Virus record (IMG/VR): IMGVR_UViG_3300005326_000706
Coordinates: 1 to 42,551 of that record
DNA length: 42,551 bases
Strand: one strand, 5' to 3'
Origin: a virus
Lineage: Duplodnaviria; Caudoviricetes
Shown here: one piece after another, positions 637 through 26,194 of the stretch
Numbering within the stretch: position 1 is the first letter of the stretch
Layout of the letters: every line of letters starts with the position of its first letter
The notes under the pieces: generated by a model
The model's database searches: none
The model's input: the letters and a program-made list of their open reading frames with translations, nothing else
Told to the model about the DNA's origin: nothing
Made by a program: the position numbers and the translations under genes

Positions 637-683
637 ATGGTGCCGTCCTTATATAAAGGGAGAACTTTAGTTTCTGGCGGCTA

Positions 684-3793: not shown

Positions 3794-6199
3794 ATGGACG
3801 AACTCTACGTAACCCTCGAAGAACTGATTGAGGCGACGGGTATTCCCCGCGCTACCCTTGATCGTCGCCTCAAGGCCCTTGGGATCGAGCCCGAGCGGAG
3901 AGTGAACGGCTCGGGTCGCCCCAAGAACTACTATCCGATCTCGGACCTCCCGGATGACTGGCAGCTCAAGGTCAACATAAAGAGGAACGAGAAGCACCTC
4001 TCCGAGCTCAAAGCCCAGGGGCTTCTCGATCCTCCTTCTCTCGTCAGGCGCGGCCGCCCACGGAAGGGACTTCCGGTCCCTGTTTCCGTTCCGGCCCCTG
4101 CCTCCGCATCCAATCTCCCAGCGATATCGGGATCTACCGCGCTCATCTCTTCCGCCTGCTCCCTTCCGGCCTCATGGGAGGGGCTTAAGCAAGAGAAGAT
4201 AGATCGGGTTTTCGCCGAGGCTCACCTCGTGGGCCTTTACCGGGAGCATTACGGGAAGGCTCAAGGGTGGGGATCTCTCGGACCGGCAAGGGAGCAGTTT
4301 GTAAGCGCCTACAACCTGGGAGATGCAGGGGCTTTCCCCGAGCTCTTTAGAATCATCGGCCCTGTCGGGCGCTCGACTCTCGATGCCTGGGACCATCGCA
4401 TCAAGGTAGAAGGAAACGATTGCTTCGCCCTGGCCGACCGGCGCGGCAAATGGCGCAAGGGGCAGCGGGCCGTAACGGAAGCGCAGGGAAAGATTCTGGC
4501 CCAGGTGGCCTTATCCCCCAACGCCCCTCTCATCGCAGAAGTCATCCGCAGGGCCAGGGACCGCATGGCCTTAGAAGGCATCCCCTGCGAGACCTCGGAC
4601 GACACCCTGCGCCGCTTCCTTGGCGACTACAAGAAGGCCAACCTGGCTAAATGGACCGCCGTAAGGCAGGGGCATAAGGCCGTAAACGACAAGCTCGTCT
4701 ACCACATGAGCCGCGACTACGACGCCATCGAGGTCGGAGACATCCTCTTTTGCGACGGCCATGTGTTCAACGCGGGCTCCGAGCACCCGGACACGGGCAA
4801 GGAAGTCCGGATGATGCTCGTGACCTGGTTCGACATGAAGTCGTCATATCCGGTCGGCTGGGAGATCTCGCCCACTGAAAACACTCAGGCCGTGGCGACG
4901 GCCCTCTACCGGGCCATCCTCTGCCTGGGAAAACTCCCCAAGGTTGCATATCTCGACAACGGCAAAGCCTTTAGGAGCCGCTTTTTTAACGGGGTAGACG
5001 ACCTGCGCAAAACCCCTCTCATGGGCGCCTTCCAGCTTCTCGGGATGGAGAAGATCTTCGCCTGGGCCTATCACGGCGAATCCAAAACGCAGGAGCGCTG
5101 GCACAGGACCCTTGCCGAGCTCGAGCGCGAGCTCTCTTCCTACCGCGGCACATCCATAGATTTGAAAGTCCCCCGGCTCATGCGGGGCGAGAAGCTCCAC
5201 GTGGCTCTATATCAGGCGATAACCGGCGGCAAGGTCCCCTCGACCTTGGATCTTCACCGGGACCTGGCCGATTGGGTGGACCGCTACGCAGGACGCCCCC
5301 AGAGAGGACACCTCAAGGGGATGACTCCCCAGGCGGTTTTCGATGCCGGGCGGGGACCGGGGTTTACCGAGGATGAAGCGCGGCGCCTCCGGTTGCTCCT
5401 CATGACGTATGCGGTGCGCTCCATCCACCGGGACGGCATCAAGATGCCCTGGAGCGAGCAGCGGTTCTATCACCCAGGCCTTTACGGGCGGGCGGGGCAG
5501 CCCGGCATCGTTCGCTTCGATGAATTGGACCGGGACCGGGTGTGGGTCTACGACACGGGAAACCGCTTCATTTGCGAGGCCTCACGCATGCGGGCGGTCC
5601 ATCCGGCCGCGCGCGTGCTCGGGAGCGAGGCCGACCAGGAGGAGCTCAAGCGGCAAATCGAGCTCAAACGGCACCTTGAAAAGCAGACCTTCGGCCAGGC
5701 GCGGGCGTTTGTCGAAGCGGTGGTGGTTCCCGAAATGGAGCGGCGCGAGGCGGCCAAGGAGGAGGAGCGGCGTGAAGCCTTGAAGGCCGGGGAAAAGATC
5801 TCCGTCAAGAGAGCGGTTGAGGCTCCGCCCATGACCGAGGCCGAGGCGCGGCGGATACAGGCGGAATTCGAGGCGGCCATGCTTTGCCGGGAAGAGGAGC
5901 GGGCGGCTGAAGAGGCGGCCAAGGGCGCGGAGGCGGACCTGGATCTATTCGCTTTCGTCGATCCGGAACCCGCGCCGGAGCTCTCTTTCTGGGAGCAAGT
6001 GGCCCTTCTCCCGGACATGGACAGGTACGAAAAAGATATCGAGTCTCAGGTCAAGGGGATGCTCATCCCCCAAATGGAGCAGGCGTGGATGAGCTACTTC
6101 GAAAAGACGCCTGAATACGGGCGATTCATGGACTACTTCGAGCAGCACAAAAGGAAGATGGCGCTGATGTACGGAGCTGAAAAGGAGGAGCAATCATGA
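3794..6199 (+). CDS. Mu-like DDE transposase (MuA)
   Basis: N-terminal HTH; catalytic motifs FCDGH, YLDNG, SKTQERW; Mu transposase C-terminal-like 'VRFDELDRDRVWVYD..NRFICEA'. Confidence 0.93.
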   Translation: MDELYVTLEELIEATGIPRATLDRRLKALGIEPERRVNGSGRPKNYYPISDLPDDWQLKVNIKRNEKHLSELKAQGLLDPPSLVRRGRPRKGLPVPVSVPAPASASNLPAISGSTALISSACSLPASWEGLKQEKIDRVFAEAHLVGLYREHYGKAQGWGSLGPAREQFVSAYNLGDAGAFPELFRIIGPVGRSTLDAWDHRIKVEGNDCFALADRRGKWRKGQRAVTEAQGKILAQVALSPNAPLIAEVIRRARDRMALEGIPCETSDDTLRRFLGDYKKANLAKWTAVRQGHKAVNDKLVYHMSRDYDAIEVGDILFCDGHVFNAGSEHPDTGKEVRMMLVTWFDMKSSYPVGWEISPTENTQAVATALYRAILCLGKLPKVAYLDNGKAFRSRFFNGVDDLRKTPLMGAFQLLGMEKIFAWAYHGESKTQERWHRTLAELERELSSYRGTSIDLKVPRLMRGEKLHVALYQAITGGKVPSTLDLHRDLADWVDRYAGRPQRGHLKGMTPQAVFDAGRGPGFTEDEARRLRLLLMTYAVRSIHRDGIKMPWSEQRFYHPGLYGRAGQPGIVRFDELDRDRVWVYDTGNRFICEASRMRAVHPAARVLGSEADQEELKRQIELKRHLEKQTFGQARAFVEAVVVPEMERREAAKEEERREALKAGEKISVKRAVEAPPMTEAEARRIQAEFEAAMLCREEERAAEEAAKGAEADLDLFAFVDPEPAPELSFWEQVALLPDMDRYEKDIESQVKGMLIPQMEQAWMSYFEKTPEYGRFMDYFEQHKRKMALMYGAEKEEQS

Positions 6200-6292
6200 G
6201 GTTGGGTGACGGGCACCCATAAAAAATAGCCGCCTCCGATGGGCCAAATCGAAGGCGGCTCCAAACAACTTGAAAAAACGAGGGGTGAAACA

Positions 6293-7030
6293 GTGGAAAC
6301 CATAAAGTTTACGCCGCAATTGATCAAGACAAAATCCTTCCGTGATTCCGCCGTAGCCGTCGACGGGGCCGTGACCATGCCGGGAGATGAGCAGCTTATC
6401 GGGATCTGTGGAGCTGCGGGGATGGGCAAGACCTTCACGTCGGAGGTCCTGGCGGCTCAGTACGGCGGGGTTTACGTCAGGGTGCAGTACATCTGGAAGA
6501 AATCCGAGCTTGAATTTGCGCAGGCGCTCTGCCGCGGCGTCGGGATGGTCTCGCCTCCCTCGCGCAAGGGGAAATGCTGGCTCGAGGTCATAGCACGGCT
6601 CAAGGGAACCAACCGGCCCGTCTTCCTCGATGAAATGCAGCGGTTGCCCAAGGACTTCCTGCTCCTAGCCCTGGATCTAACCGACGCCACCAAGTGTCCG
6701 GTGATCCTCGTGGGAGAACCCGAGCTCAAGGGCATGATGGAGGAAAACAAGCGGATGTGGAGCCGGACGTTCCAGTTCATCGAGTTTGAGCCCATCGCGG
6801 TGAGCGACGTGATGCTCTACGCGGCCGATGCGACCGGGATCGGGCTCGATCCTGGTATTGCGGGCATTCTTCACACGGCGGCCAAGGGGGATTTCAGGAT
6901 CGTAAAGCGTTCCATGCGCGCCCTGGTGCAGTTCGTAAACGCCAAAGGGGCCGGGAAAGACGGAAAGCCCCAGGTGACCGAAGAGATGGCCAGAATCGCC
7001 GCCCAGGCGGGCTTGAAGGGCAAGGAGTAG
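6293..7030 (+). CDS. MuB-like AAA+ transposition ATPase
   Basis: Walker A GAAGMGKT, Walker B VFLDE; directly after the transposase; GTG start with GAGGGG RBS. Confidence 0.9.
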   Translation: METIKFTPQLIKTKSFRDSAVAVDGAVTMPGDEQLIGICGAAGMGKTFTSEVLAAQYGGVYVRVQYIWKKSELEFAQALCRGVGMVSPPSRKGKCWLEVIARLKGTNRPVFLDEMQRLPKDFLLLALDLTDATKCPVILVGEPELKGMMEENKRMWSRTFQFIEFEPIAVSDVMLYAADATGIGLDPGIAGILHTAAKGDFRIVKRSMRALVQFVNAKGAGKDGKPQVTEEMARIAAQAGLKGKE

Positions 7031-9244: not shown

Positions 9245-9445
9245 ATGAGGCTTGAACGACGTTTTGCAAAGCACGAGCGGCTGAGGCGGAGGTTTGCGCG
9301 CCTTAGGATCGAACGGCTCACGGGGGCATCGCTGGGGGAATATCTGCAATACCCAGCGGCCTACGAGGAGCACGTCCGGGCCATGAGAAACGGCAGAGGC
9401 ATCCATCGGGACGACTTCAGGCCCCATTGGGCCGTGGTGAGGTAG
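9245..9445 (+). CDS. Small basic hypothetical protein
   Basis: Fills the operon gap; start uncertain. Confidence 0.35.
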   Translation: MRLERRFAKHERLRRRFARLRIERLTGASLGEYLQYPAAYEEHVRAMRNGRGIHRDDFRPHWAVVR

Positions 9446-9449
9446 GGCC

Positions 9450-10217
9450 ATGCATTGCCCCAAGATGCACGCAACCATGACCGTTTCGCGCTGCATTGCC
9501 AACCGGCTGGCGAAGGCGGGCCAAAACCGCCTGCATCCGGTCACTGCGCTCAAGTATCCCTGCTGCAAGGAGTGCCCGACGGGGGATGCCGCGGCGCGGG
9601 GCGAGCTTGACGATGCCGATGTTTTGGCGCTTCGAGCGGAGGCCGAAACGGGATTGAAACCCGCCCCCTCGCGGGAGGCCCGGCACGCGGAGCGGACGAA
9701 AAGAAAGGATGAGGATGTGAAGTCGCTTACGGAAGAGACGCAGGAAATGGCCCCTGCCGTTGCGCAGGCTCAGACGGAGTCTCAGGACATTAAGCGGTGC
9801 ACAAAGTGCGGCGAGACAAAACCCCTCGAGGAGTTCCACCGGCAAAAAGATGGGCCGGATGGGCGTGAATCGATTTGCAAGGTGTGCAAGCGGGATCGGC
9901 AGAACGAGCACTACCGGAAAAACAAGGACGCGATCCTTTCGAAACGGCGCATCCGCCGGAGCGCGGCCGGGCGGGAGACGAAGGCCCGCACGAAACCGGC
10001 GGTGAAAGCGGCTGCCGTGAATCTTTCGCGGGAAGGAGCGGGTTTGAAATCGGGCGCGTTAGAGGGCCTTCGCCTCGTCGTGGATCTTAGCCTGTATCCC
10101 GAGATCTTTGAGGAGATCCGCCTGATCGCGGAATCAGAAGACAGAACGCCCGAGGCCCAGGTGAGGCACTGGCTGCGCAAAGGGAGCCTTGGTGAGAGGG
10201 AGGCTTGCCGTGGGTGA
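9450..10217 (+). CDS. Zinc-finger protein with C-terminal Arc/RHH-like domain
   Basis: 'KRCTKCGETKPLEEFH...CKVC' finger; 'LVVDLSLYPEIFEEIRLIAESEDRTPEAQVRHWL'. Confidence 0.7.
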   Translation: MHCPKMHATMTVSRCIANRLAKAGQNRLHPVTALKYPCCKECPTGDAAARGELDDADVLALRAEAETGLKPAPSREARHAERTKRKDEDVKSLTEETQEMAPAVAQAQTESQDIKRCTKCGETKPLEEFHRQKDGPDGRESICKVCKRDRQNEHYRKNKDAILSKRRIRRSAAGRETKARTKPAVKAAAVNLSREGAGLKSGALEGLRLVVDLSLYPEIFEEIRLIAESEDRTPEAQVRHWLRKGSLGEREACRG

Positions 10218-10554
10218 GTTGGAAAGATCCGAAAAGAGCCTGCTCCGGAATCTCGTTTTGGAGGGGCTCACCCATCTTTCGTGCCCCATGCAGGGGCAGG
10301 TGGCGAAGGCCATCGATACCGCTGTCGACCGGTTTAACGCGCTTTCGGCCCGGCATCGGGCGACGAAGAAGTGCGGCCTGTGCGGAGAAAGATCCGTAAG
10401 GGGGGAGTACCGCCAGGGCAGGAGGATGTGGGTCTGCGATAAGTGCTGCGGCCGCGAGAGTGCGGGAGTGCAGGCTTCGGGAAAAAATTGCACGCAATCC
10501 AAGAAAAAACGGTGTGAAGAGGGCAAGCGGGCGGTCGATCCGGCCAAGGTATGA
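10210..10554 (+). CDS. Hypothetical zinc-finger protein
   Basis: CGLC...CDKCC; GGGAGG RBS before GTG. Confidence 0.55.
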   Translation: MGELERSEKSLLRNLVLEGLTHLSCPMQGQVAKAIDTAVDRFNALSARHRATKKCGLCGERSVRGEYRQGRRMWVCDKCCGRESAGVQASGKNCTQSKKKRCEEGKRAVDPAKV

Positions 10555-10670
10555 GCCGCCCTCCTGCCCTGGAAGCGGGGTTAAGAGACCCGGGTCCACC
10601 CGTCTCTCTACCCCAAGTGAGGATAAGAGCGCAACACGGGACAAGGCACAAAAATGCGAAGGAGAGAGAG

Positions 10671-11057
10671 ATGGGTAGAACCGGCATTTGCAGGGCGTGC
10701 GGGGATGGGAAAGAAAAGCCCATCAAGGGACGAGGATTGTGTTCGCATCACTACAGGCTCGAGCGGGAACAGGAGTTGATTGCTGGATGTGCCCCCGCCG
10801 GGAAGACGGAACTCATGGTGACAATCGATTTCAGCCTCGCTCCCCACCTGCTCCAGGGGCTTGAGCTCCGGGCAGGAGATGAGCTCAGGCCTCTTGGAAA
10901 TCAAATCCTCTGGGAGCTCAAACAGGCTGAAAAGCTCGCCGCTGAGCCCGTGACACTCCCCATGGCGAGCCTCGAGGAAAGGCGCTGCCCGTGCGCTGAG
11001 GAGCGGGAGACGAAGCCGGTTGCCGTGCCGGTGGCGGAGCTGGGGGGCGAAGCATGA
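10671..11057 (+). CDS. Zinc-finger plus Arc/RHH-like protein
   Basis: 'CRAC...GRGLCSHHY'; 'VTIDFSLAPHLLQGLELRAGDELRPLGNQILWEL'; AAGGAG RBS. Confidence 0.65.
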   Translation: MGRTGICRACGDGKEKPIKGRGLCSHHYRLEREQELIAGCAPAGKTELMVTIDFSLAPHLLQGLELRAGDELRPLGNQILWELKQAEKLAAEPVTLPMASLEERRCPCAEERETKPVAVPVAELGGEA

Positions 11058-11578
11058 GCAAGCGGGCGAGGGAAACAGCCGAGATTGTTGACGTGCCTCA
11101 AAGCAGGTCTCAGGTCGTTGACGACATCCGTGAGATCGGGCGTCTGCAACGGGATATCAAGCGGCTGGATTTGGCCAAGGCTGAGGCTATTTCGGCCATT
11201 GAAGAGCGGTATGCCACGGAGTCCGGGCCACTCAAGGAGGCTAAGGCAGCCAAGACACATGGCGTCCGTCTCTGGTGCGAGGTCAACCGAAACGATTTGA
11301 CGCAGGGCGGAAAGGTCAAGACGGGCAGATTCGAGACCGGCGAAGTGCGCTGGAGAATGGACCCGCCCAGCGTGACCGTCAAAGGAACGCCGGCCGTCCT
11401 GGACCAACTCCACCGGCTGGGGCTCGAACGGTTCATCCGGGTGAACGAGGCGGTGAACAGAGAGGCCGTCCTGGAAGACCCTGCTGCGGTGCGAGCCATC
11501 AAAGGACTCTCGATTACACAGGACGAAAAGTTCGAGGTCATCCCGTTCGAGGCCGAGCCCGAGAAGGCCGCGGTCTAG
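11054..11578 (+). CDS. gam: Mu Gam-like host-nuclease inhibitor
   Basis: 'WCEVNRNDLT.GGKVKT..FETGEVRWR..PPSV' and 'IKGLSI.Q.EKF.V.PFE' match Gam. Confidence 0.92.
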   Translation: MSKRARETAEIVDVPQSRSQVVDDIREIGRLQRDIKRLDLAKAEAISAIEERYATESGPLKEAKAAKTHGVRLWCEVNRNDLTQGGKVKTGRFETGEVRWRMDPPSVTVKGTPAVLDQLHRLGLERFIRVNEAVNREAVLEDPAAVRAIKGLSITQDEKFEVIPFEAEPEKAAV

Positions 11579-11605
11579 GCCGCCCACAGATAAGGAGAAA
11601 TCACC

Positions 11606-12010
11606 ATGTCAGCCGGAATCATCGAACAGGTAAGCCTTTCAAACCTCGGGCACGGCGCCGCGGTCGAGATCTTCGATCATGAGCTTATCCGCGTGCTTGA
11701 AAACATCCAGGACCCAAACACCAAGCCCGACGCAGTTAGGGAGATCACCTTAAAGGTCAAGATCAAGCCGGACAAGGCCCGGGATTTCGGCATCGTCGAA
11801 GCCCAGGTCGTAAGCAAGCTCGCTCCGGTAAATCCTTTCACAACCCGTCTTTTTATCGGTCACGACGGGGAAAAGCCGACGTGTCAGGAACACGATCCCC
11901 ATCAGCTCACGGTAAAGGGAGCCATCGAGCAGGCCAGGGCCGGGAGCGATGAGGAGGACGGCAATGTGACATCCATAGACAAGGCGCGCGGCGCCAGGAA
12001 GGGAGAATAA
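11606..12010 (+). CDS. Conserved phage protein (often annotated 'replication terminator protein')
   Basis: 'GAAVE.FD.EL.RVLENIQDPNT.....REITLKVKIKP...R'; AAGGAG RBS. Confidence 0.75.
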   Translation: MSAGIIEQVSLSNLGHGAAVEIFDHELIRVLENIQDPNTKPDAVREITLKVKIKPDKARDFGIVEAQVVSKLAPVNPFTTRLFIGHDGEKPTCQEHDPHQLTVKGAIEQARAGSDEEDGNVTSIDKARGARKGE

Positions 12011-12013
12011 CCC

Positions 12014-12726
12014 ATGATAAAGGCAGCCATCCAGTACATCGCCACTCTCGCCCGCCCGGAAACCGTTGAGATCGGGGATCTTACCTACAGCACAGGGCAG
12101 CGCTCATGAAGCCGCCCGCTCCGGCGCCGCTCGTCATGCACACTCTCACGGGCCTTGTGGACTATGTCAAAAGCGGCCTCGATGAGGGGGTGAATCCTGA
12201 GGACCTTGCCGTTCACGTGGTGGGACACGACCGGGTGGAGCTCGTATCCCGCCTCGACCGGGACACACAGACGAGAAGGACCTTTGCCCAGGTGCGGCTT
12301 CCGGAATTCGAGGAGTTCAAATACAGTTATTTCCACGATGTCGAGGCCTTCGTTATCCGGCTCCAGATGGGATTTGTGCAGGATGAGACCACAGCAGAGC
12401 TGCTGCGCCTGGTCGGAAACATAAGGGATGAGACCGTATCCAACACGGCGGACGACGGCGTGAGCCAGACGGTTACGGTCAAGGCCGGAGCGCACCTCGT
12501 TACGAACAAAAAAGTCCCGAACCCCGTTCACCTTCGCCCCTGGCGGACGTTTAGAGAGATCGAGCAGCCGCAGTCGGCCTTCGTCTTCAGGCTCCGGAAG
12601 GGAGATCCCCTGCCCGGCTGCGCGCTCTTTGCATCCGACGGCGATATGTGGCGCCTCACCGCCATAGAGAGCATCCGGCACTGGATCAATGAGCAGCTGG
12701 ACGGCCAGGTGCACGTGATCGCGTAA
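12014..12726 (+). pseudogene. Conserved phage partner protein, apparently split by a frameshift near 12095-12109
   Basis: 31-aa ORF MIKAAIQYIATLARPETVEIGDLTYST (12014-12109) followed in another frame by 12106-12726 (TLTGLVDY, DDGVSQ, VPNPVHLRPWRTFREIEQP, ALF.SDG). Confidence 0.65.
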
Positions 12727-12778
12727 GGGAGGATGGGCGGGGCACGGGCGACCGTGCCCCGCTTTGGAGGGGAGATGC

Positions 12779-13186
12779 ATGAGTAAACAGATGAGAGCCA
12801 TCCGGAGGGAGCTCAAGCGGGAAAACCGCAAATGGCCGGCGGCGTTGACGCCGGTTCCGGTCGACCAGTGGCCGGATGGGGCACCCGATGGGCTGGTCGC
12901 CGTTTTGAGATCGCGGCGCTTTCTGGTGCAGCAGTACGCGGAAGGAGGCGGGCTTATCCGGCTTACCGTCTGCCGCACGCACGTTCGGACAGACGGGGAT
13001 TATAAATCCGGCATCACCTGGGAGGACCTCCAGCAGCTGAAACGCGAGGCCGGATTCGGGGATTTTGACGCCGTAGAGATCTTCCCGAGGGACCGCGATT
13101 TGGTCGATTGCGCCAACATGCGGCACCTTTGGGTCTTCATGCGGCCGATCTCCTTTATCTGGCGGGCGACGGAGGGAAAGCTATGA
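12779..13186 (+). CDS. Conserved phage hypothetical protein
   Basis: 'GITWEDLQQLKREAGFGD..AVEIFP...DLVD.ANMRHLW' phage motif; GGAGG RBS. Confidence 0.75.
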   Translation: MSKQMRAIRRELKRENRKWPAALTPVPVDQWPDGAPDGLVAVLRSRRFLVQQYAEGGGLIRLTVCRTHVRTDGDYKSGITWEDLQQLKREAGFGDFDAVEIFPRDRDLVDCANMRHLWVFMRPISFIWRATEGKL

Positions 13187-13395
13187 GCTGTCGAAATTGC
13201 GGTGAGACGGTTGAGGTGTGCGGCGAAATCAGGAGGGAGACGGCATCTGCCTATCTCCTCTTTGACGGCGCGCGCGAGGGGTGGATACCCAAGTCCCTCA
13301 TCGAGGTCGAACGAACGGCGGGAGGCCGCGGGCCGGATCTTCCCGTAACTGTATCGATGCCCGAGTGGCTGGCTATTGCGAAGGGGTTCGCGTGA
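13183..13395 (+). CDS. Small phage hypothetical protein
   Basis: 'ET..AYL.FDG....WIPKS.I......MPEWLA..KG' common phage motif. Confidence 0.75.
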   Translation: MSCRNCGETVEVCGEIRRETASAYLLFDGAREGWIPKSLIEVERTAGGRGPDLPVTVSMPEWLAIAKGFA

Positions 13396-14084
13396 GCCCG
13401 ATTCCGTGTCAGTGTCCGGCCTGCGGTTTTTGCGGGGAGCTTGAAGCGTTTTTCGATCCCGTGGACTGGAAACGCGTCCTGGTGCTCAGGGATGAGCTCC
13501 CTGCTCTCGTTCAGCCTAATCTGTGGGAGTATCTGGCCCTCTTCCGGCCTGACAAAAGGGCGCTCACGGGCAAGCGGACGCTCAAGATCCTTACCGAGCT
13601 GCGCGACCTCACCACGACGGGCCGCGTGCGCTGGGAGAGATCGGAAGAGCGGCCGTGTCCTCCGGATGTCTGGGCCGAGGCCATGCGGGCGGCCATCGAG
13701 CGGGAGCCCCGGCTTGAGCACCTTACAGATCACAACTACATCCGGCACACGGCCTGGGGCAAGGCAAGACCCCTTGCCGCCAGGACCGAGCGGGACAATG
13801 AAGCGCGAAAGGTTTCGGATCGTGGCCGGCCTGTGCTCCCTCTCCCCGAGGGAGAGACCGGAAACCGGCTGCCGGGCCGGAGTGAGGGCGAATCCGAACC
13901 GCCTGCCACAGCCGAAGATATCCGCGCCCTGGCCGAGGCGCTGGGGAAGGCATTCGACGGAGGACCGAAGAAGAATTGCCATACATGCAAGGACTTTGAG
14001 CCGCCGCGTTGGTGCCGCCTTGATCCAAAGGCTGTGAAGCCGGTCAACCCTGCCGAGGCGTGCGGAAAACACCGGAAGAGGTGA
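13392..14084 (+). CDS. Mu-like conserved hypothetical protein with zinc ribbon; last gene of the early operon
   Basis: 'CQCPACG...YLALFRP.KRAL...L..HNY'; GTGA overlap. Confidence 0.7.
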   Translation: MSPIPCQCPACGFCGELEAFFDPVDWKRVLVLRDELPALVQPNLWEYLALFRPDKRALTGKRTLKILTELRDLTTTGRVRWERSEERPCPPDVWAEAMRAAIEREPRLEHLTDHNYIRHTAWGKARPLAARTERDNEARKVSDRGRPVLPLPEGETGNRLPGRSEGESEPPATAEDIRALAEALGKAFDGGPKKNCHTCKDFEPPRWCRLDPKAVKPVNPAEACGKHRKR

Positions 14085-14171
14085 TGTGACAATCTTAACG
14101 GATAGATCGGATGTAAACGTTCACGGGTACATCTGGAACGCGCCGAAATCGTTGTGATAATGGCGTGTAGC

Positions 14172-14190
14172 CGTATAAATCTTGTTGGAT
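14172..14190 (+). other. attI-like recombination site (entry point of the cassette array)
   Basis: CGTATAA-ATCTT-GTTGGAT has the attI1 spacing (7-nt L box, 5 nt, GTTRRRY); GTTGGAT is the exact complement of ATCCAAC in the next attC. Confidence 0.5.
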
Positions 14191-14231
14191 GGAAAGCCCG
14201 GAAGTTTTTCATGACCCCCATCGAAAAGCCC

Positions 14232-14260
14232 TTGACTTTGTACGCACAAAGTTCTACTTT
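14232..14260 (+). promoter_or_regulatory. Cassette 1 sigma70 promoter with palindromic operator
   Basis: TTGACT-17bp-TACTTT; inverted repeat ACTTTGT-acgc-ACAAAGT overlapping the -35 box and spacer. Confidence 0.7.
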
Positions 14261-14326
14261 GTTCTCAACACGGTGAGGGAACGGCCCGAACCGGAAAATG
14301 GGAACCGAGCGAAGTTGGAGGGTGTC

Positions 14327-14548
14327 ATGAAGATCACGGTTGAACACACAACATACGAAGGATCACCGCTTGCCCAGTTATGCCCCCACATGGCTGACCA
14401 ACCCGTCAGCATCTATCGGCTGTACGATGACAAAGGCGAATTCGTAACTCAAAGTGAAACCCTTGAAGGCATCCTTTCTGACGGCCTTGGGATTAAGATT
14501 ATTCCTCACCAAACTGATGACCCGAAACAGGGTTGGGATTTCGTGTAG
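14327..14548 (+). CDS. Cassette 1 gene A, 73-aa unknown protein
   Basis: GGAGGG RBS before ATG at 14327, downstream of the promoter. Confidence 0.7.
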   Translation: MKITVEHTTYEGSPLAQLCPHMADQPVSIYRLYDDKGEFVTQSETLEGILSDGLGIKIIPHQTDDPKQGWDFV

Positions 14549-14719
14549 ATGAGACGTGAAATCAAATCCCACAAGGGAGGACGCACGGAGAGAATTTATC
14601 TCCGTGCTACTCCCGAAATCAGGCAGAGAGTAAATGAGCTGGCAAAGCAAAAAGGTTGTAGCGTCGCTGACTTATTCGAAGAGTGGGTGAAGGAAAAGAC
14701 TGATCCAACAAAACGTTGA
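14549..14719 (+). CDS. Cassette 1 gene B, 56-aa ribbon-helix-helix protein (absent from the ORF track)
   Basis: Hand translation MRREIKSHKGGRTERIYLRATPEIRQRVNELAKQKGCSVADLFEEWVKEKTDPTKR; RHH pattern; abuts gene A; ends inside attC. Confidence 0.8.
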   Translation: MRREIKSHKGGRTERIYLRATPEIRQRVNELAKQKGCSVADLFEEWVKEKTDPTKR

Positions 14720-14809
14720 AGCGGACGGCGAACCAGTGCTTGCATCACGGTCTGAGGTTTTCTCTCACACCCGTACTGGTTCGCGCCGCCGCTTAACTCT
14801 GTGTTAGAC
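14703..14809 (+). repeat. attC site 1 (107 bp)
   Basis: R'' ATCCAAC; GTTgAAGCGG pairs with CCGCTTAAC leaving an extrahelical G; AACCAGT/ACTGGTT stem; R' GTTAGAC. Confidence 0.9.
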
Positions 14810-14812
14810 GGC

Positions 14813-14839
14813 TGAGCCCCGGTGTTTGGCCGGGGCTCA
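14813..14839. terminator. Hairpin terminator after the cassette 2 operon
   Basis: TGAGCCCCGG-7nt-CCGGGGCTCA perfect 10-bp stem just past the minus-strand stop. Confidence 0.55.
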
Positions 14840-14845
14840 AGGGGA

Positions 14846-15145
14846 TCAGGCTAGGTATGCGTGGAGTGCTTGCAACAGGAGATCGCGGAGTGAGACTTTG
14901 TCATCCACGGCGCGGTGCTGTGCCTTGGTCCAGATCTCTTCCGGGATGTCACGGAGGAGGTAATTGCCGGAAGAATGTGTCTTCCGAAAAATGCGTTTGG
15001 CAATGTGCATCACATTCACTGGTTTGTTCTCGGCGTGCAATCGCTTTATCTCCGCCTGTACATCTGGGTCACACTGGGAGCAGATCGCAGCTCCCCCCAT
15101 CAAGATATGAGCTTTCGGACTTCCACATGCATCACAGAGCTTCAT
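14846..15145 (-). CDS. Cassette 2 gene B, zinc finger plus RHH
   Basis: CDAC..CSQC, then 'NYLLRDIPEEIWTKAQHRAVDDKVSLRDLLLQAL'; ATGA overlap with gene A. Confidence 0.8.
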   Translation of the reverse strand: MKLCDACGSPKAHILMGGAAICSQCDPDVQAEIKRLHAENKPVNVMHIAKRIFRKTHSSGNYLLRDIPEEIWTKAQHRAVDDKVSLRDLLLQALHAYLA

Positions 15146-15792
15146 CTGCTGACTCCTCTCTCAATTTCTTCGGCTTCGCGGATAAATTCATCGTGGCGCT
15201 TCTTCTGCTCTTCCCGACTGATCCAGCCGTCTGCATCGTAGGTGAGAGCCCCAACCGCTTTCGACCGGAGATCGGCGGCTTTGGTGAGTGCGTTGCTACG
15301 ATCTTCGGCTTTCGCCGCCTCGGAATATTTCTCTCGCCATGCCACCATTCTTTCTCTGGCTTCGGCTCGGAGTTGAGCCGGAATCATCACGTTGTCGTCA
15401 GTGGTGCCGCGCTCGATCCTGTACGCCTCTTCATACAGGGCTTCGATTGCATTGCGTTCGCGGTTTGCGGGCAAGTTCGCTATCCGGTCACACTCGGCTC
15501 GATACTCGTTTTCGAGCCGAGTGGCCGCTGTATAGATGGCTTCGGCGACTACGGTGGGAGCAACCAGGTCCGACTTGCCGAAGCGGGCGAGCACTCGGAG
15601 GTCGGCCGGGTTCTGACCGCTCTTGCGGATCATGGCCACCGTATCTTTTTGGATTTTAGCGTCCAGGATGAGGGCGCTCATTGGGATGGTCGGGAGGTCT
15701 TTTTTGGCAACATGCGAGTGGATTATCACGCGGCCCGGCTGCCAAGTTGCTTCCCTCTTATCGTCGCTGTAAATCTTTTGGGGCTCTCTCAT
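15142..15792 (-). CDS. Cassette 2 gene A, 216-aa unknown helical protein
   Basis: AAGGAG RBS; lies between the promoter and the RHH gene. Confidence 0.75.
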   Translation of the reverse strand: MREPQKIYSDDKREATWQPGRVIIHSHVAKKDLPTIPMSALILDAKIQKDTVAMIRKSGQNPADLRVLARFGKSDLVAPTVVAEAIYTAATRLENEYRAECDRIANLPANRERNAIEALYEEAYRIERGTTDDNVMIPAQLRAEARERMVAWREKYSEAAKAEDRSNALTKAADLRSKAVGALTYDADGWISREEQKKRHDEFIREAEEIERGVSR

Positions 15793-15836
15793 TACCTTCT
15801 CCTTCCGAGTTTGGGGTTGCTGTCGATGTTGGATAT

Positions 15837-15865
15837 AATGTATATCATGATAATCATGATGTCAA
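15837..15865 (-). promoter_or_regulatory. Cassette 2 sigma70 promoter with palindromic operator
   Basis: Minus strand TTGACA-17bp-TACATT; spacer filled by ATCATGAT-t-ATCATGAT. Confidence 0.8.
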
Positions 15866-15914
15866 GAACGAAATGAGAGAAAATGAAGGGCTTTGGAAAA
15901 AACTTAGGGTGAGC

Positions 15915-15998
15915 GTCTAACCAAGGGATGAAGGCGGACCCGAACCACGCCGGACAAATTTGGTGGTGCTGTCCGGAAGCTTATCGGCGGCGTAATGG
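15915..15998 (+). repeat. Degenerate attC site 2a
   Basis: R'' GTCTAAC is the exact complement of the cassette start GTTAGAC; GATgAAG/CTTATC L boxes; R' reads GTAATGG instead of GTT. Confidence 0.6.
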
Positions 15999-16090
15999 CC
16001 TAACCCAGGGCTGCAAGCGACGGCGGCCAGCAAGGAAGTCGGTTCGGGTGAGGCCGAGAAGGCCGCCGCGCCTGAGCCCCATCGTTAGAT
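15998..16090 (+). repeat. attC site 2b (93 bp)
   Basis: R'' GCCTAAC; GGGCT/AGCCC and CGGCGGCC/GGCCGCCG stems; R' GTTAGAT. Confidence 0.88.
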
Positions 16091-16114
16091 GAACGTACAG
16101 CGAAGGAGGTCAGA

Positions 16115-16456
16115 ATGACAGCCATTGTAAGGTTCAAATGCGAAGTCTGCAGCAGAGAGTGGGATACTCAACCTTTCGTTTCTGACAAACTAGCCAACCG
16201 ATGGCTACAGGAACAGCGCCCACAATATTGCTGTGGGAATGCAGTCCAAGAAGAAGTGGTGACAATCCCAGCGGCACCCAGATTCATAAGCCGTGATATT
16301 GTCCCGGCAGATCTATCAAAAGAGAACAAGATCTACTCGCTGGAGGATATTGCTCCCCTAGATCAGGATTGCAAACTGGTGTGGTTGGATTCTAACAATG
16401 TCGCTGTTCTATGGCCGGGGTGTGATCATATTAGCCTGTATCAACGGGCATTCTAA
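16115..16456 (+). CDS. Cassette 3 gene, 113-aa unknown Cys-containing protein
   Basis: AAGGAGGT RBS just after R'; TAA stop inside the R'' of attC3, the classic promoterless cassette layout. Confidence 0.85.
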   Translation: MTAIVRFKCEVCSREWDTQPFVSDKLANRWLQEQRPQYCCGNAVQEEVVTIPAAPRFISRDIVPADLSKENKIYSLEDIAPLDQDCKLVWLDSNNVAVLWPGCDHISLYQRAF

Positions 16457-16538
16457 CCAGCAAAATGCAGCGGACGCACCTGTCATCGGTGCGTCTTCCG
16501 CATCAACCGAGCTGCGCCGCTGATTTTGGGCGTTAAAT
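16451..16538 (+). repeat. attC site 3 (88 bp)
   Basis: R'' TTCTAAC; AAAATgCAGCGG pairs with CCGCTGATTTT leaving an extrahelical G; GACGCACC/GGTGCGTC stem; R' GTTAAAT. Confidence 0.9.
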
Positions 16539-16772
16539 CGTCTTGCCACTCAGCAGGCCGAAGATAGCTCCAACCCCCAGCATCCATGTGGCTTGAAACT
16601 TATCGGAAAGATTGCAAAGCAGGGTGTTGGGTGCCGAGGGGTTATTGCAATAGGCGCAGACGCTGGCCCCGATCATTGAGACCACGGTGAGGAAAAGGAC
16701 AGAAAGGAATATCAGCTTGAATCCTGGGGAGATGTCGACCTGGACATCCCCCAGAGATGGCTTTCGGACCAT
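16533..16772 (-). CDS. Small two-TM membrane protein (cassette 4)
   Basis: Two hydrophobic helices; stop codon lies in the R' of attC3. Confidence 0.65.
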   Translation of the reverse strand: MVRKPSLGDVQVDISPGFKLIFLSVLFLTVVSMIGASVCAYCNNPSAPNTLLCNLSDKFQATWMLGVGAIFGLLSGKTI

Positions 16773-16775
16773 ATA

Positions 16776-16955
16776 TCAAACAGCCCGCTTTGTGTAAGTG
16801 ATAATGGTTCTTTTGAGCGGGTGTCTGATGCTTTCAGTAATGATTCTGGCTATGAGCCCAAGCAGCCCATCTTTCACTACCAGCTTGTCAGGCTGATGGT
16901 CTTTGGCTTTAGGTGATTTTGTGTCTGTTCTCCGGGTTTGAGATCCCTTTTTCAT
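16776..16955 (-). CDS. Small basic hypothetical protein (cassette 4)
   Basis: GGAGGG RBS before ATG at 16955; ends 3 bp before the membrane gene. Confidence 0.55.
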   Translation of the reverse strand: MKKGSQTRRTDTKSPKAKDHQPDKLVVKDGLLGLIARIITESIRHPLKRTIITYTKRAV

Positions 16956-17093
16956 GGTTACCCTCCATATCCTGGTATTGCCGATTGTCCACAAAAAGCA
17001 TCTCACACAACGAGGCGCACGACGAATAAGAGGAGGACGGACCGAAGAAGTTGGTCGACTACTGTAACCCGCGAGAGATAGTGTCTTCTTACC

Positions 17094-17128
17094 ATAAGGC
17101 CGCCCAAAAAGGCGGCTTATTTTCTTTC
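17094..17128 (+). terminator. Probable intrinsic terminator
   Basis: GCCGCC-caaaaa-GGCGGC followed by TTATTTTCTTT. Confidence 0.55.
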
Positions 17129-17407
17129 TCCTGAAGAAACAATACTTTGCATTATGCACCCGCCGATTGCGCTTGAACCCCTCCCCGTAAAAAATCCATT
17201 CTGCCAGTGATCGCCGGGACTTATCACTCTCATTCGCTCACGGCGACCGTGCTCTGCACCCCCGGCACGGCCGCCGCCTCCCTCTCCCCGTTCATCCCGG
17301 CTTAAAACACGACAACCCCGAGAGGCCCGTCCGGCTCCGACTCCCCTGATTATTCGAGGTGCGGAAAGCCGGGCGGGCCGCCTGATCGCAAAAAAAGGAA
17401 CGAGGCC

Positions 17408-17800
17408 ATGCCCAGATTATCGCAGTCATCCCTCGATAAGCTTGCCAGCTGTCATCCGGATTTGCAGCGCGTTCTGTGCGAGGCGATCAAGATCGTCGAT
17501 TTCACCGTGTGCGACGGCCACAGGGGCAAGGATGCCCAGAATAAGGCCGTGGCCGAGGGCAAGAGCAAAACGCCCTGGCCCACGAGCAAGCACAACCATA
17601 AGCCGAGCCTTGCCGTGGACGTGGCGCCGTACCCCATCGACTGGAAGGACCGGGAGCGGTTCATCTATCTCGCCGGGATCTTTAAGGGCATCGCCTTCAA
17701 AGAGGGCGTTCTGCTTCGCTGGGGCGGCGACTGGGATGGAGACAGCGACTTCCTTGAGCACGAATTCCGGGATCTGCCCCACTTCGAGCTCATCGCATAG
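17408..17800 (+). CDS. Endolysin, peptidase M15 family
   Basis: 'CHPDLQRV...DFTV..GHR...Q...SKH....AVD...LRWGGDW...DLPHFEL'. Confidence 0.92.
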   Translation: MPRLSQSSLDKLASCHPDLQRVLCEAIKIVDFTVCDGHRGKDAQNKAVAEGKSKTPWPTSKHNHKPSLAVDVAPYPIDWKDRERFIYLAGIFKGIAFKEGVLLRWGGDWDGDSDFLEHEFRDLPHFELIA

Positions 17801-17811
17801 GAGAGACTCAA

Positions 17812-17982
17812 ATGCTCTGGTGGCCATCATGGCCCTCCGCTTTCAACTTTCTTCCCGAACGCCGCCGCACAGAGCCTCCCATGCCTGTGCCGTCCCGAGC
17901 CGAGCGTTTTAAAAAACGCCGGAGGAAACGAAAGAACAGGCAAGCCAGGGCTAGCAGGAGATGCAACCGCAACCGCGCATAG
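17812..17982 (+). CDS. 56-aa Arg/Lys-rich peptide (absent from the ORF track)
   Basis: AGGAG RBS; hand translation ends ...FKKRRRKRKNRQARASRRCNRNRA; exactly fills the gap. Confidence 0.5.
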   Translation: MLWWPSWPSAFNFLPERRRTEPPMPVPSRAERFKKRRRKRKNRQARASRRCNRNRA

Positions 17983-17985
17983 AAG

Positions 17986-18228
17986 ATGGGAAGCACCTTG
18001 GAGCCAAAACACATTCTTTTGAGCCGGACCGTTCAGGGCTTGATCTTGATCCTCCTTGGGCACCTCGGCCCCAGGGTGGGGATAACGGCCGATACGGACA
18101 GCCTGGGGCGAATCCTCGAAGAGCTCTTCACCGTAGGCGGTCTCGCCTGGGCGCTCTATGGAAGGATCAAGGCGGAAAAGCCCCTGCGCTTCAGATCATC
18201 CGGAAGCCCTGAGACCGACAAGGATTGA
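17986..18228 (+). CDS. Small two-TM protein, holin candidate
   Basis: 'K..LLSRTV.G' followed by two hydrophobic segments and 'YGRIKA'; next to the endolysin. Confidence 0.6.
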   Translation: MGSTLEPKHILLSRTVQGLILILLGHLGPRVGITADTDSLGRILEELFTVGGLAWALYGRIKAEKPLRFRSSGSPETDKD

Positions 18229-23809: not shown

Positions 23810-26194
23810 ATGTTTACGGTAGAAAACCCGCCGGAGTGGCTCAAGGGGCTTCCTGAGGCGGCCATTCGGGCAGGCCTTTCCGCCTACTGCGCCGTTTTCT
23901 CCGGGACGAAGGATGAGGCCCAGGCAAAGCGCGCCTCCATGGCGGCCGTCAAGGCGGGTTTCGAGCGGGGACCGGATGGAGCCTGGCGCGAGAGGTCCGA
24001 TATCTCCTCTGTGCGCCGCGGCGTGCTGCGCTTTCGGGCCGCCCAGGCAGATACCTCGGGGCTGATGTGGGAGGCGGTGATCATCGCCCCGGGGCTTTCC
24101 TTGAGCATGCCCCGCTTCTACTGGTCGGAGGAGGTGCTCGCCAAGGCGGCGGCGCTTTTCCAGGGGGTGGACGTCAACGCCTACGAGCTTACCACCGATT
24201 TCTACGGCCATCTGTCCATCCCGAACGTCTCGGATCTCGAGGACGTCAAACGGTATCTCACGGCACGCAAGGCGGGCTGGGTCGAAAAGGCGTGGTTTGA
24301 GGCGGGGGTGGGCGTTAAGGGGCTCATCCGGTTTTTGCCGGAGCAGGCGTGGCTCCCTGAGACGATCAGGCAGGGCATCGAGGCTGGGAACCCAAACGTT
24401 TTGGGGCTCTCCATCGACTCCAGGGTTCGTGGTGTCGAGGTGGTCGTGGATGACTGGACGGTGGTGTGGGTGACGGAGATCCTGGGCGCAAGCTCGGTCG
24501 ACGTCGTGACCCGCCCGGCGGCCGGGGGGAAATTCTTGAGGGCCGTAGCAGGCCTGGGTAAGGAGGAAGGACGTATGGAGAAGGAAAAATTATTGGCCCT
24601 CATCAAGGAGAAGCGGCCCGATTTGCTGAAAGGCAAGGATGCTGCGGCTCTGAGCGAGGATGAATTGCTGGCGCTCGCCAGACAGTGCATGGAGCCTGCG
24701 CCCGATCCCGGTACGCGGGCGGCTCAGGCCACAGGCGGGCTTACGCCGGATGAGATCGCAGCGCAGATCAAGTCGGCCGTCGAGGCCGTGGAGCAACGCG
24801 CGGCGTGCTCCCGCATGCTGGATGCGGAGCTTCTCGAAGCAAAGCTTCCCGAGATGGCGGCTCAGTTCGTGCGCGATGAGTTCGCAGGGCAGGTCTTTGA
24901 GGCAGAAAAGCTCACTGCGACCATCAAAAGGCAAAAGGATTATCTCGCGACCATGGCCGCGACCACGGGAAACGGCGGATCAACATCGCCCTGGGGCGAT
25001 CAGTCGCGGGCCTCGGGCGGCCTCGGCATGCGGGATAAGGTGCAGATCGCCTCCGATAAGCTGTTCGGACTCACGGGAGACGATATCACGGGACTTGCGG
25101 CCCTTCGACGGCTCGACGGAAAGCCCGTTTTCGAGGGCTTGCGGGTGGCCCAGGATTACGAGGGGGTCCCGGCGCCTGCCGGAATCGCGGAGCTTTATGT
25201 GCTCCTCACCGGCGACGCGGAAGTGAACGGCGGGTTCCATCCCGCCCGCCTCAGCCAGGATATCCGTGCCGCCCAGGACCTCAATAGCGCCACATTCGCC
25301 TTCGCTTTGGGAAACACCTTGGCTCGCCGTCTGGTCAAGGATTACCGGGAGGCCACATATGGCGAGGAACTGCTGATTTCCATCCGCAAGCCGGTCAAGG
25401 ACTTCCGGCAGCAGGAAGCGGTAATGATTGGCTACTTCGGCGATCTCGACGACGTGGACCCCGAGACCGAGGATTACCAGGAAATTTCCGGCGTGACTGA
25501 CGAAGAAAGCACCTACGCCGTCGGTCAGAAAGGCAATTTGCTTACCATCACCAGAAAAGTCATCAAGAACGACGATCTTTCCGTGATCCAGCGCAAAGTG
25601 ACTCGCCTGGGCCGTTCCGCGCGACGCACACACGCCAAGTACGTATGGGGAAAATTCGTTAATAACGCAACCTGCTCCGACGGGACTGCCTGGTTCACCG
25701 TCGGGCACGGAAACCTTGGAACCACGGCCCTCTCCCTTGCCACGGCTCTTGTGGCCTACAAGGCGCTTGCGGGCATGACGGAAAAGGACTCCGGTGAAGT
25801 CATCGGCCTCTTGGACAACGATGATGTCAAGCCCGTTCTCATCTATCCCCCCTCGCTCATGGAAACCGCCGAGAGCATCGTGAATGACGAGGCGTACTAC
25901 ACCGGAAACGACCTCACGACCAAAACGCGCAACTCGCTTCGCGGCAAGATCACGGGCCGTCAGATTAGCCGATTGAGCGATGCCAACGACTGGGGGCTTC
26001 TCATGCCATCCTCCGAGGTGGACATGGTGGAGATGGGCTATCTCGACGGCCGCCAGGAACCCGAAATGTTCGTGGCCGATCAGCCCACGAGCGAGCAAGT
26101 TTTTGTAGCAGACAAGGTCCGCTACAAAATCCGCCATGAATACGCGGGGGCCGTGATCGACTACAGAGGCGGCTACAAGGCTGTGGTGGCCTAA
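23810..26194 (+). CDS. Fused ChaB-like / prohead protease / scaffold / major capsid (gpT-like) protein
   Basis: ChaB-like first ~60 aa; protease 'GLSID...SVDVVTRPAAGGKF'; capsid 'KDF..ITRKVIKNDDL...F...HGNL...GYLDGRQEP...YKIRHEY...DYRG'. Confidence 0.88.
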   Translation: MFTVENPPEWLKGLPEAAIRAGLSAYCAVFSGTKDEAQAKRASMAAVKAGFERGPDGAWRERSDISSVRRGVLRFRAAQADTSGLMWEAVIIAPGLSLSMPRFYWSEEVLAKAAALFQGVDVNAYELTTDFYGHLSIPNVSDLEDVKRYLTARKAGWVEKAWFEAGVGVKGLIRFLPEQAWLPETIRQGIEAGNPNVLGLSIDSRVRGVEVVVDDWTVVWVTEILGASSVDVVTRPAAGGKFLRAVAGLGKEEGRMEKEKLLALIKEKRPDLLKGKDAAALSEDELLALARQCMEPAPDPGTRAAQATGGLTPDEIAAQIKSAVEAVEQRAACSRMLDAELLEAKLPEMAAQFVRDEFAGQVFEAEKLTATIKRQKDYLATMAATTGNGGSTSPWGDQSRASGGLGMRDKVQIASDKLFGLTGDDITGLAALRRLDGKPVFEGLRVAQDYEGVPAPAGIAELYVLLTGDAEVNGGFHPARLSQDIRAAQDLNSATFAFALGNTLARRLVKDYREATYGEELLISIRKPVKDFRQQEAVMIGYFGDLDDVDPETEDYQEISGVTDEESTYAVGQKGNLLTITRKVIKNDDLSVIQRKVTRLGRSARRTHAKYVWGKFVNNATCSDGTAWFTVGHGNLGTTALSLATALVAYKALAGMTEKDSGEVIGLLDNDDVKPVLIYPPSLMETAESIVNDEAYYTGNDLTTKTRNSLRGKITGRQISRLSDANDWGLLMPSSEVDMVEMGYLDGRQEPEMFVADQPTSEQVFVADKVRYKIRHEYAGAVIDYRGGYKAVVA

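What the first reader, a model, noticed from the sequence alone, without database searches (positions are those of the whole stretch)
14172..16960. Integron cassette array built into a Mu-like transposable phage, with no integrase
Seen: three canonical attC sites (14703-14809, 15998-16090, 16451-16538) and one degenerate site, all co-oriented, with RYYYAAC/GTTRRRY-type ends and extrahelical G. Each cassette start complements its own inverse core (GTTGGAT/ATCCAAC and GTTAGAC/GTCTAAC exactly, GTTAGAT/TTCTAAC at 6/7), and the cassette 3 stop lies inside R''. Known: this complementarity is the footprint of IntI-mediated insertion of circular cassettes. No tyrosine recombinase is encoded in the window. 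Inference: the phage has a cassette-capture hotspot between its early and lysis operons, loaded in trans by a host IntI, which would make a replicatively transposing phage a carrier for integron cassettes.
Basis: partly seen in the sequence, partly recalled or inferred. Interest (0 to 1): 0.93.

Follow-up and report, generated by a model that had tools for sequence, protein, structure and literature searches.

The report
Mu-like phage with integrase-less integron platform
A transposable (Mu-like) prophage carries a row of integron gene cassettes behind a site built like a bacterial integron's entry site, and a related phage has the same entry site with entirely different cassettes, so these phages likely borrow their host's integrase to pick up and swap accessory genes.

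Summary
Three attC sites (14703-14809, 15998-16090, 16451-16538) fold as attC hairpins and score 34-48 bits on a model built from 17 bacterial attC sites. The fourth site is a relic (15 bits, noise level). No tyrosine recombinase is encoded. A related Mu-like phage (L089) has the same site (15 of 18 letters) at the same position, followed by different cassettes. Cassettes also lie near the homologous gene in 6 of 65 more distant viral loci (5 of 57 clusters), one with its own attI-like site and five cassettes; 0 of 83 control loci had any. Best reading (0.72): an integron lacking only intI, likely loaded in place by a host integrase. Recombination was not tested and the host is not identified. 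Integrase-less attC clusters in phages are published (Qi 2023), and this scan noted many on other DNA. I did not find a transposable phage, or a shared attI with swapped cargo, in print. Cargo functions are unknown.

The parts
3794..6199 (+). Mu-type DDE transposase (context)
   Evidence: phrog_310 E 8.8e-82; Mu-transpos_C E 4.8e-11
6239..7030 (+). MuB-like transposition ATPase (context)
   Evidence: phrog_296 E 7.9e-30; AAA_22
11054..11578 (+). Mu Gam-like end-protection protein (context)
   Evidence: phrog_491 E 8.9e-48
13281..14084 (+). last gene of the early region, left anchor of the array; function unknown
   Evidence: phrog_2161; precomputed PF27180; orthologue at 64-65% identity precedes the array in L089
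14153..14161 (+). possible extended -10 element upstream of the head site (candidate cassette promoter, weak)
   Evidence: read from the sequence; not called by the promoter scan; not conserved in L089
14169..14190 (+). attI-like head site: L-box part CCGTATAA, 5-nt spacer, core G|TTGGAT; predicted crossover between 14184 and 14185
   Evidence: 15 of 18 letters shared with the L089 head site; rank 1 of 867 GTT positions against host attI sites; core complements R'' of attC1 7/7
14185..14803 (+). cassette 1 (50% GC): candidate own promoter 14232-14260 with an inverted repeat in its spacer, a 73-aa orphan gene and a 56-aa gene
   Evidence: promoter read by eye, below the threshold
14327..14548 (+). 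73-aa protein, no relative found
14549..14719 (+). 56-aa probable ribbon-helix-helix protein; stop codon inside L'' of attC1
   Evidence: NikA-like E 7.9e-4 and RHH_10 E 2.1e-3, both below cut-off
14703..14809 (+). attC1 (R'' ATCCAAC, L'' GTTGAAGC, L' GCTTAAC, R' GTTAGAC)
   Evidence: (47.7 bits); 93.7% identical over 95 nt to a site in array L329
14804..15992 (+). cassette 2 (55% GC): two genes on the opposite strand with their own promoter and a hairpin at their 3' end
   Evidence: start core complements R'' at 15915 7/7
14813..14839 (.). 11-bp hairpin, likely terminator of the inverted genes
14846..15145 (-). 99-aa protein with two CxxC motifs; 38 other clusters at 53-71% identity; a distant relative lies next to an attC in L355
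   Evidence: 38% over 48 aa
15142..15792 (-). 216-aa protein, no family found
15837..15865 (-). sigma-70-type promoter match (10 of 12) overlapping an inverted repeat
   Evidence: 1 found, 2.2 expected in shuffles
15915..15998 (+). degenerate attC (R'' GTCTAAC intact, R' GTAATGG lacks GTT)
   Evidence: 15.4 bits, E 0.28; z 0.31
15998..16090 (+). attC2, directly abutting the degenerate site: likely relic of a cassette that lost its gene
   Evidence: 38.5 bits; preceding core matches only 4/7
16085..16532 (+). cassette 3 (50% GC) with a 113-aa gene (16115-16456) whose stop lies in R''
   Evidence: no family
16451..16538 (+). attC3
   Evidence: 33.6 bits; 76% identical to the second attC of L089; its arm motifs retrieve 121 bacterial sites
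16533..17096 (-). tail module (50% GC) with two inverted genes (16533-16772, 79 aa; 16776-16955, 59 aa), no attC
17097..17118 (+). intrinsic-terminator-like hairpin closing the array region
   Evidence: 3 found, 3.9 expected in shuffles; a hairpin plus T-run sits at the same place in L089
17198..17301 (+). non-coding stretch conserved in L089 (78%), right anchor of the array
17408..17800 (+). endolysin
   Evidence: phrog_465 E 3.2e-39

Best explanation
This Mu-like prophage carries an attI-like site followed by attC-bounded cassettes but no integrase, and a host integron integrase (IntI) likely inserts and removes cassettes there in trans. Shown: the sites, the missing recombinase, the same head site at the same position in a related phage with different cassettes, and closely similar attC sites in other arrays. 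Inferred steps: (1) an ancestor of the two phages acquired a host-type attI just behind its last early gene; (2) while the phage is a prophage, host IntI recombines that double-stranded site with the folded bottom strand of a circular cassette's attC, so the newest cassette stands first; (3) attC x attC excision and decay remove older cassettes and leave relics such as the degenerate site; (4) cassettes are expressed from their own promoters or by read-through to the terminator at 17097; (5) replicative transposition and packaging then carry them to new hosts.
For: Head site: 15 of 18 letters shared with L089 although the two intergenic stretches differ in length (106 vs 166 nt) and align poorly. 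It ranks 1 of 867 GTT positions in the window, and the L089 site ranks 1 of 349, on a matrix from eight intI-adjacent sites. Four host sites of this form complement their first attC 7/7 and two do so 6/7. The first cassettes of both phages join the head site with 7/7 core matches. L089 shares both flanks (64% protein on the left; 78% and 71% DNA on the right) but no cassette gene. attC1 has close relatives with other flanks in both runs that hold the phage and in arrays L325 and L327-L331, which have no match to the window's phage genes. Its family shows changes on both sides in 9 of 20 predicted pairs. 34 of 122 genomes of the class that holds 39-46% identical transposases encode an IntI over the cut-off. 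Cassettes recur near the homologous gene in 6 of 65 viral loci, against 0 of 83 control loci, and none of the six records searched encodes IntI.
Against: No recombination was tested. Only two phages share this head site, so two separate captures of attI-plus-cassettes cannot be excluded, and L383 shows that a different attI-like site can be gained in the same zone (ranks 5 and 38 of 332). The attI matrix is partly circular: sites were picked with a TAA-N5/6-GTT pattern, two of them because they resembled the phage sites. Only 8 of the 19 IntI rows with an attC call gave such a site. The 18-letter head pattern also hits four unrelated viral contigs with no attC. No empty site was found. The DNA right of the last attC differs between the two phages and has no attC. 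Eight genome-resident elements with the flank-gene homologue (one cut short) show neither attC nor the strict head motif. No joint showing cassette loss or gain was seen in two runs (contigs only). The host is not identified, and the control loci are probably from other hosts.
Confidence: 0.72

Rival explanations
1. Block capture. Each phage, or an ancestor, took up a ready-made piece of a host integron (attI plus first cassettes) by illegitimate recombination. The block has been inert cargo since.
For: Qi et al. describe prophages that captured integron segments. Cassettes 1 and 2 have their own candidate promoters and one attC has decayed. A different attI-like site occurs in L383.
Against: It needs two captures of near-identical attI sites 100 and 160 nt behind orthologous genes, with no intI remnant in either phage. 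attC1 is 93.7% identical to a site in a separate array, which suggests a recent arrival.
Confidence: 0.15
2. Off-target seeding. Host IntI inserted a first cassette at a chance GWT (attG) site, later cassettes went in at attC sites, and the likeness to attI is coincidence or later drift.
For: IntI inserts cassettes at GWT sites genome-wide (bioRxiv 10.1101/2022.09.11.507474). The single reversed cassettes in L346 and L378 have 7/7 cores but heads that score poorly as attI (ranks 18 of 239 and 5 of 237), so this route likely operates in these phages.
Against: The window and L089 heads match host attI L-box parts letter for letter (CCGTATAA as in L237, CCGTCTAA as in L238) and rank first in their records.
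Confidence: 0.08
3. Cassettes are exchanged by homologous recombination between similar attC sequences of phage and host arrays, without IntI.
For: attC1 has 82-94% identical relatives in other arrays.
Against: It does not explain the exact 7/7 junctions at the head site, which has no attC homology.
Confidence: 0.03
4. Assembly artefact. A bacterial cassette array was spliced into the phage contig at an attC repeat.
For: An independent assembly breaks inside attC1, where summed depth rises to about 62 against about 7.6.
Against: In that assembly one contig joins early genes to cassette 1 (9282-14743) and another joins cassettes 2-3 to the endolysin (14733-18138), at equal depth (7.6 and 7.2). 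L089 has an array at the same place. Extra cassettes hidden at attC1 cannot be excluded.
Confidence: 0.02

Closest known systems
CALINs (clusters of attC sites lacking an integron integrase) in phage genomes; Qi et al. 2023, PMC9892861 (17 CALINs in 10,705 genomes; five of six tested attC sites recombined with attI1)
   Same: Two or more co-oriented attC sites in a phage with no intI; cargo mostly of unknown function.
   Different: Here an attI-like site heads the array, a relative carries other cassettes behind the same site, and the phage is transposable. 'Mu-like' occurs in that paper only in a reference title and 'transposable' not at all. I did not check whether any of its 14 Table S1 phages is transposable.
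Shewanella prophage M16-3 (Qi et al. 2023; Bujak et al. 2021, PMC8541194)
   Same: A prophage CALIN that starts with an attI site.
   Different: M16-3 also carries a complete integron with its own intact intI, is described as inactive, and is compared with P2-like phages rather than named Mu-like. No relative with other cassettes is described in the main text.
Bacterial integrons (intI, attI, Pc, attC cassettes), as in genomes of the class of G001 (from a Syntrophobacteraceae MAG) and in cyanobacteria
   Same: attC architecture, attI core of the same form, cassette-start/R'' complementarity, shared attC families.
   Different: No intI in cis; Pc not established; mixed attC types; one inverted cassette; the platform sits in a phage.
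attG off-target cassette insertion; Loot et al., bioRxiv 10.1101/2022.09.11.507474
   Same: IntI can place cassettes outside its own integron.
   Different: attG needs only GWT and differs from attI; the head site here has an attI-type L box conserved between two phages.

Membership tests
attC site | R''-L'' and L'-R' boxes, AAC/GTT cores, length 57-142 nt | tested here: met
   107, 93 and 88 nt with all boxes; length range from PMC2727003. Not met by the degenerate site (R' GTAATGG).
attC site | bottom strand folds with unpaired central spacer and extrahelical bases | tested here: met
   the first extrahelical base is C rather than G on the bottom strand. G16-to-C cost 2.7-fold in attI x attC for VCR.
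attC site | scores on an attC covariance model | tested here: met
   33.6-47.7 bits on my model R1; IntegronFinder's model was not available
attC site | recombined by IntI | not testable with these tools
   needs a recombination assay
CALIN | two or more attC sites within 3 kb of each other (criterion of Qi et al.) | tested here: met
CALIN | no intI nearby | tested here: met
   the record is classed as a provirus, 84% complete, so the host chromosome was not seen
complete integron | intI gene beside the array | tested here: not met
complete integron | attI at the head of the array | tested here: met
   by sequence only; matrix partly circular; activity untested
complete integron | cassette promoter Pc upstream of attI | tested here: inconclusive
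   no match; a weak extended -10 seen by eye, not conserved in L089
complete integron | cassette content varies behind a fixed attI | tested here: met
   two phages, no shared cassette gene; n = 2
Mu-like transposable phage | DDE transposase, MuB-like ATPase, Gam, head and tail genes, no tyrosine integrase | tested here: met
Mu-like transposable phage | TG...CA ends with a 5-bp target duplication, variable host DNA at virion ends (recalled) | not tested
   the window ends at gene borders, and the longer contig behind L320 could not be fetched

The most novel reading that the evidence does not exclude
Transposable phages of this group use borrowed-integrase integrons as a regular way to gain accessory genes. 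They keep an attI landing site at the early/late junction, gained more than once (window and L089; L383), let the host IntI load it, and then move cassettes between host integrons by transposing and packaging.
Probability: 0.35. Interest if true: 0.8.

Novelty: new variant of a known kind. Interest (0 to 1): 0.64.

Why it matters
Published phage CALINs leave open whether they are stranded fragments or live platforms (PMC9892861 suggests off-target homologous or illegitimate recombination). Two phages with one shared attI-like site and different cassettes make that question testable with a 100-bp fragment. If the site is active, a phage gains a gene-capture device without encoding its enzyme. 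A transposing phage then becomes a route by which integron cassettes, a pool reported to include anti-phage and resistance genes (abstracts), could move between chromosomes. No such cargo was identified in this window.

Tried and rejected
Rfam found nothing. BLASTN of the array against phages and plasmids found nothing. Single-protein viral scans with the flank gene and the transposase found nothing. Endolysin relatives were distant phages and served only as a control. attC1 patterns found nothing in genomes or viral contigs. The 18-letter head pattern gave L089's contig plus four hits judged chance. My heuristic scanner is insensitive: at the strict threshold it missed both L089 sites and one even when loosened, so negatives rest on the covariance model. 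L395 (25.3 bits) was dropped because it lacks GTT at R'. The one hit among 27 prophage and terminase-relative loci (L290) lies about 11 kb past the last gene with a match to the window's phage genes and was not counted. A nested fold joining the degenerate R'' to the R' of attC2 leaves attC2's own stem intact and was not pursued. Cargo: no PHROG, Pfam, NCBIfam or PADLOC family over cut-off, and no usable Atlas hit for the 73-aa and 216-aa proteins. The 99-aa protein matched 1 of 401 genomes, with no attC beside it. Run X2 holds scattered short pieces of the phage at low depth and gave no alternative junction. No structure or complex prediction was run.
Full report
1. The record. The window is a whole 42,551-base record, classed as a provirus and 84% complete. 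It encodes a Mu-type transposase, a MuB-like ATPase, Gam, an endolysin, terminase, portal and tail genes. It has no tyrosine recombinase: PF00589 gives no match at E<=0.1 and a bacterial IntI gives at best E 0.17. The array is 50-55% GC, against 62% in the early and 59% in the late region.

2. The attC sites are real. The three bottom strands fold into attC-type hairpins (z -4.64, -3.12, -4.70; 0 of 200 shuffles as good). A heuristic scan finds only these three in the window and none in 10 shuffled windows. I built a covariance model from 17 attC sites picked by that scanner in IntI-bearing bacterial loci. It scores the window's sites 47.7, 38.5 and 33.6 bits, the next hit 15.5 and the degenerate site 15.4. 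Of the 121 distinct sites extracted, 97 have AAC and 111 have GTT at the expected places outside the pattern. Cognate core matches are 7, 7 and 6 of 7, while non-cognate pairs score 4-7. The first extrahelical base is C on the bottom strand, not G.

3. Not an assembly artefact. In an independent assembly, one contig spans early genes to cassette 1 and another spans cassettes 2-3 to the endolysin, at depths 7.6 and 7.2. The break is inside attC1, where other contigs in both runs carry attC1-like copies with different flanks. A metagenome scan gave 12 loci. L320 is the same DNA as the window. L325 and L327-L331 bear L320's assembly label, are 43-50% GC, have no match to the window's phage genes and hold attC sites, six of them in L329; one is 93.7% identical to attC1. 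No intI lay on those short contigs. An alignment of 14 such sites shows changes on both sides in 9 of 20 predicted pairs.

4. A related phage has the same entry site and other cassettes. A protein search gave one close relative of the gene left of the array (65%), found on L089. L089 matches the window on both sides of the array, but none of the window's cassette genes. It has two attC sites (50.3 and 29.5 bits), both with 7/7 core matches. Its first cassette holds a 59-aa gene; its second holds four genes, among them a Bro-N protein; an inverted pair with a weak Gp49/RelE-like match follows. The heads share 15 of 18 letters up to GTT, although the intergenic stretches are 106 and 166 nt and otherwise align poorly.

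5. The head site looks like attI. Among 59 rows with an IntI match and at least 300 nt upstream (with duplicates), 19 had an attC call. Eight of these (six distinct loci) had a TAA-N5/6-GTT site whose core complements that attC, four at 7/7 and two at 6/7. Their L-box parts include CCGTATAA (L132, L166, L237) and CCGTCTAA (L238), the same letters as in the window and L089. A matrix from these six plus two look-alike intI-adjacent sites ranks the window's head 1 of 867 and L089's 1 of 349 GTT positions. The selection is partly circular, and other integrons in the set have other heads. Both L boxes lack the C of AAC, as Bouvier et al. state for attI sites. The same 18-letter pattern hits four unrelated contigs among 2.9 million, so position, not the motif alone, carries the weight.

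6. Recurrence and limits. Among 65 viral loci with a more distant homologue of the flank gene (57 clusters; 31 with a transposase, MuB or Gam match), seven had model hits of 20 bits or more. I dropped L395, leaving 6 of 65 loci and 5 of 57 clusters. L383 has five cassettes right after a mor gene, with core matches of 7, 7, 6, 7 and 7, behind a site with a 10-bp inverted repeat and TAA-N5-GTT that resembles the Shewanella attI printed by Qi et al.. L390 has two reversed cassettes (7/7 each). L346 and L378 have single reversed cassettes with heads unlike attI. L355 and L358 are 98-99% identical but differ in the attC segment, with one breakpoint at an R' core. L378 had no transposition-gene match within the locus. 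Five of these records were searched for IntI, with no match; most are incomplete. Control: 0 hits in 83 other viral loci (834 kb), probably from other hosts. Against generality: 1 of 27 prophage and terminase-relative loci had a hit, outside the phage-like genes, and eight genome-resident elements with the flank-gene homologue lack the strict head motif.

7. Host. Not identified. Transposases at 39-46% and portal or terminase at 56-61% identity occur in genomes of the class or phylum of G001, a Syntrophobacteraceae MAG by its record title. One relative of the 99-aa protein is named from a Desulfobacterales MAG. 34 of 122 genomes of that class have an IntI over the cut-off. I chose this group after seeing these leads and did not search other phyla.

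8. Mechanism. Shown: anatomy, missing recombinase, shared head site, different cargo, shared attC families. From the literature: IntI recombines double-stranded attI with the folded attC bottom strand and inserts at the first position. Inferred: host IntI acts on the prophage's site; older cassettes are lost or decay; cassettes 1 and 2 are expressed from their own promoters, probably under their ribbon-helix-helix-like genes; transposition and packaging spread them. Cargo functions are unknown. I put this reading at 0.72, block capture at 0.15, attG seeding at 0.08, attC-homology exchange at 0.03 and artefact at 0.02.

9. What is known. Qi et al. 2023 (PMC9892861; main text read, supplement part 1 of 2, Table S2 figures not visible) report 17 phage CALINs and IntI1 activity on five of six sites, and an attI-headed CALIN in prophage M16-3. 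That prophage has its own intI and is not one of the two Mu-named prophages of its strain (PMC8541194, passages). I saw passages only of PMC2727003, the attG preprint (supplements closed), PMC4119200, PMC11434368, PMC13492144 and PMC13323075. Eight searches showed no paper on an attI-headed, integrase-less array in a transposable phage or on related phages with different cassettes behind one attI; most listed papers were seen as listings only, and subscription journals are largely missing. This scan has noted many phage attC arrays on other DNA, none by sequence likeness to this one and none holding all my Mu-related words.

10. Verdict. Real; a CALIN by definition; it likely works as an integron that borrows its integrase. 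New variant of a known kind; interest 0.64.

Noticed in passing
L355:10345-13525 (and L358): A four-gene module with type IV Cas matches (Csf2, Csf1, an unassigned 225-aa gene, Csf3) lies in a Mu-like provirus between an attC (13520-13582) and a degenerate attC-like site (about 10228-10315), on the strand opposite to the attC top strand.
   Followed up: partly
L355:8147-9821 vs L358:9313-11521: Two 98-99% identical proviruses differ by rearrangement within their attC segment; one breakpoint falls on an R' core.
   Followed up: partly
L383:5290-6654: An attI-like site with a perfect 10-bp inverted repeat, then five short cassettes (61-82 aa genes, no family), right after a mor gene; the last core runs straight into the next phage gene's ribosome-binding site.
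   Followed up: partly
L089:11097-13084: One cassette of about 2 kb holds four phage-like genes including a Bro-N protein, so a phage-type module is itself packaged as a cassette.
   Followed up: partly
L089:10693-10706: A palindrome resembling a parS site (consensus recalled) lies about 100 nt upstream of the head site; it occurs in no other record fetched, and the window has only a partial match.
   Followed up: partly
L166, L139, L095, L114, L119, L131, L132 (cyanobacterial loci): Sites of the same attI form, often preceded by an inverted arm 7 nt upstream (TATACGG-N7-CCGTATA in L166 and L139), suggest one attI type shared between cyanobacteria and the class of G001.
   Followed up: partly
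window 1-1696: Three minus-strand accessory genes at 45-50% GC left of the repressor, one with DUF2845; no attC there.
   Followed up: no
window 29943-30218: A 91-aa DNA-binding protein (phrog_379, E 6.6e-34) sits inside the tail operon between the major tail and tail chaperone genes.
   Followed up: no
window 39936-39969: A 34-bp perfect inverted copy of a stretch near 24642-24675 in the head gene region.
   Followed up: no
L287, L288, L290, L291 (G503, G497, G493, G508): Elements with a 42-46% identical transposase, MuB and two more early genes but few or no matches to the window's head and tail genes in the fetched DNA; possibly non-phage Mu-like transposons.
   Followed up: no
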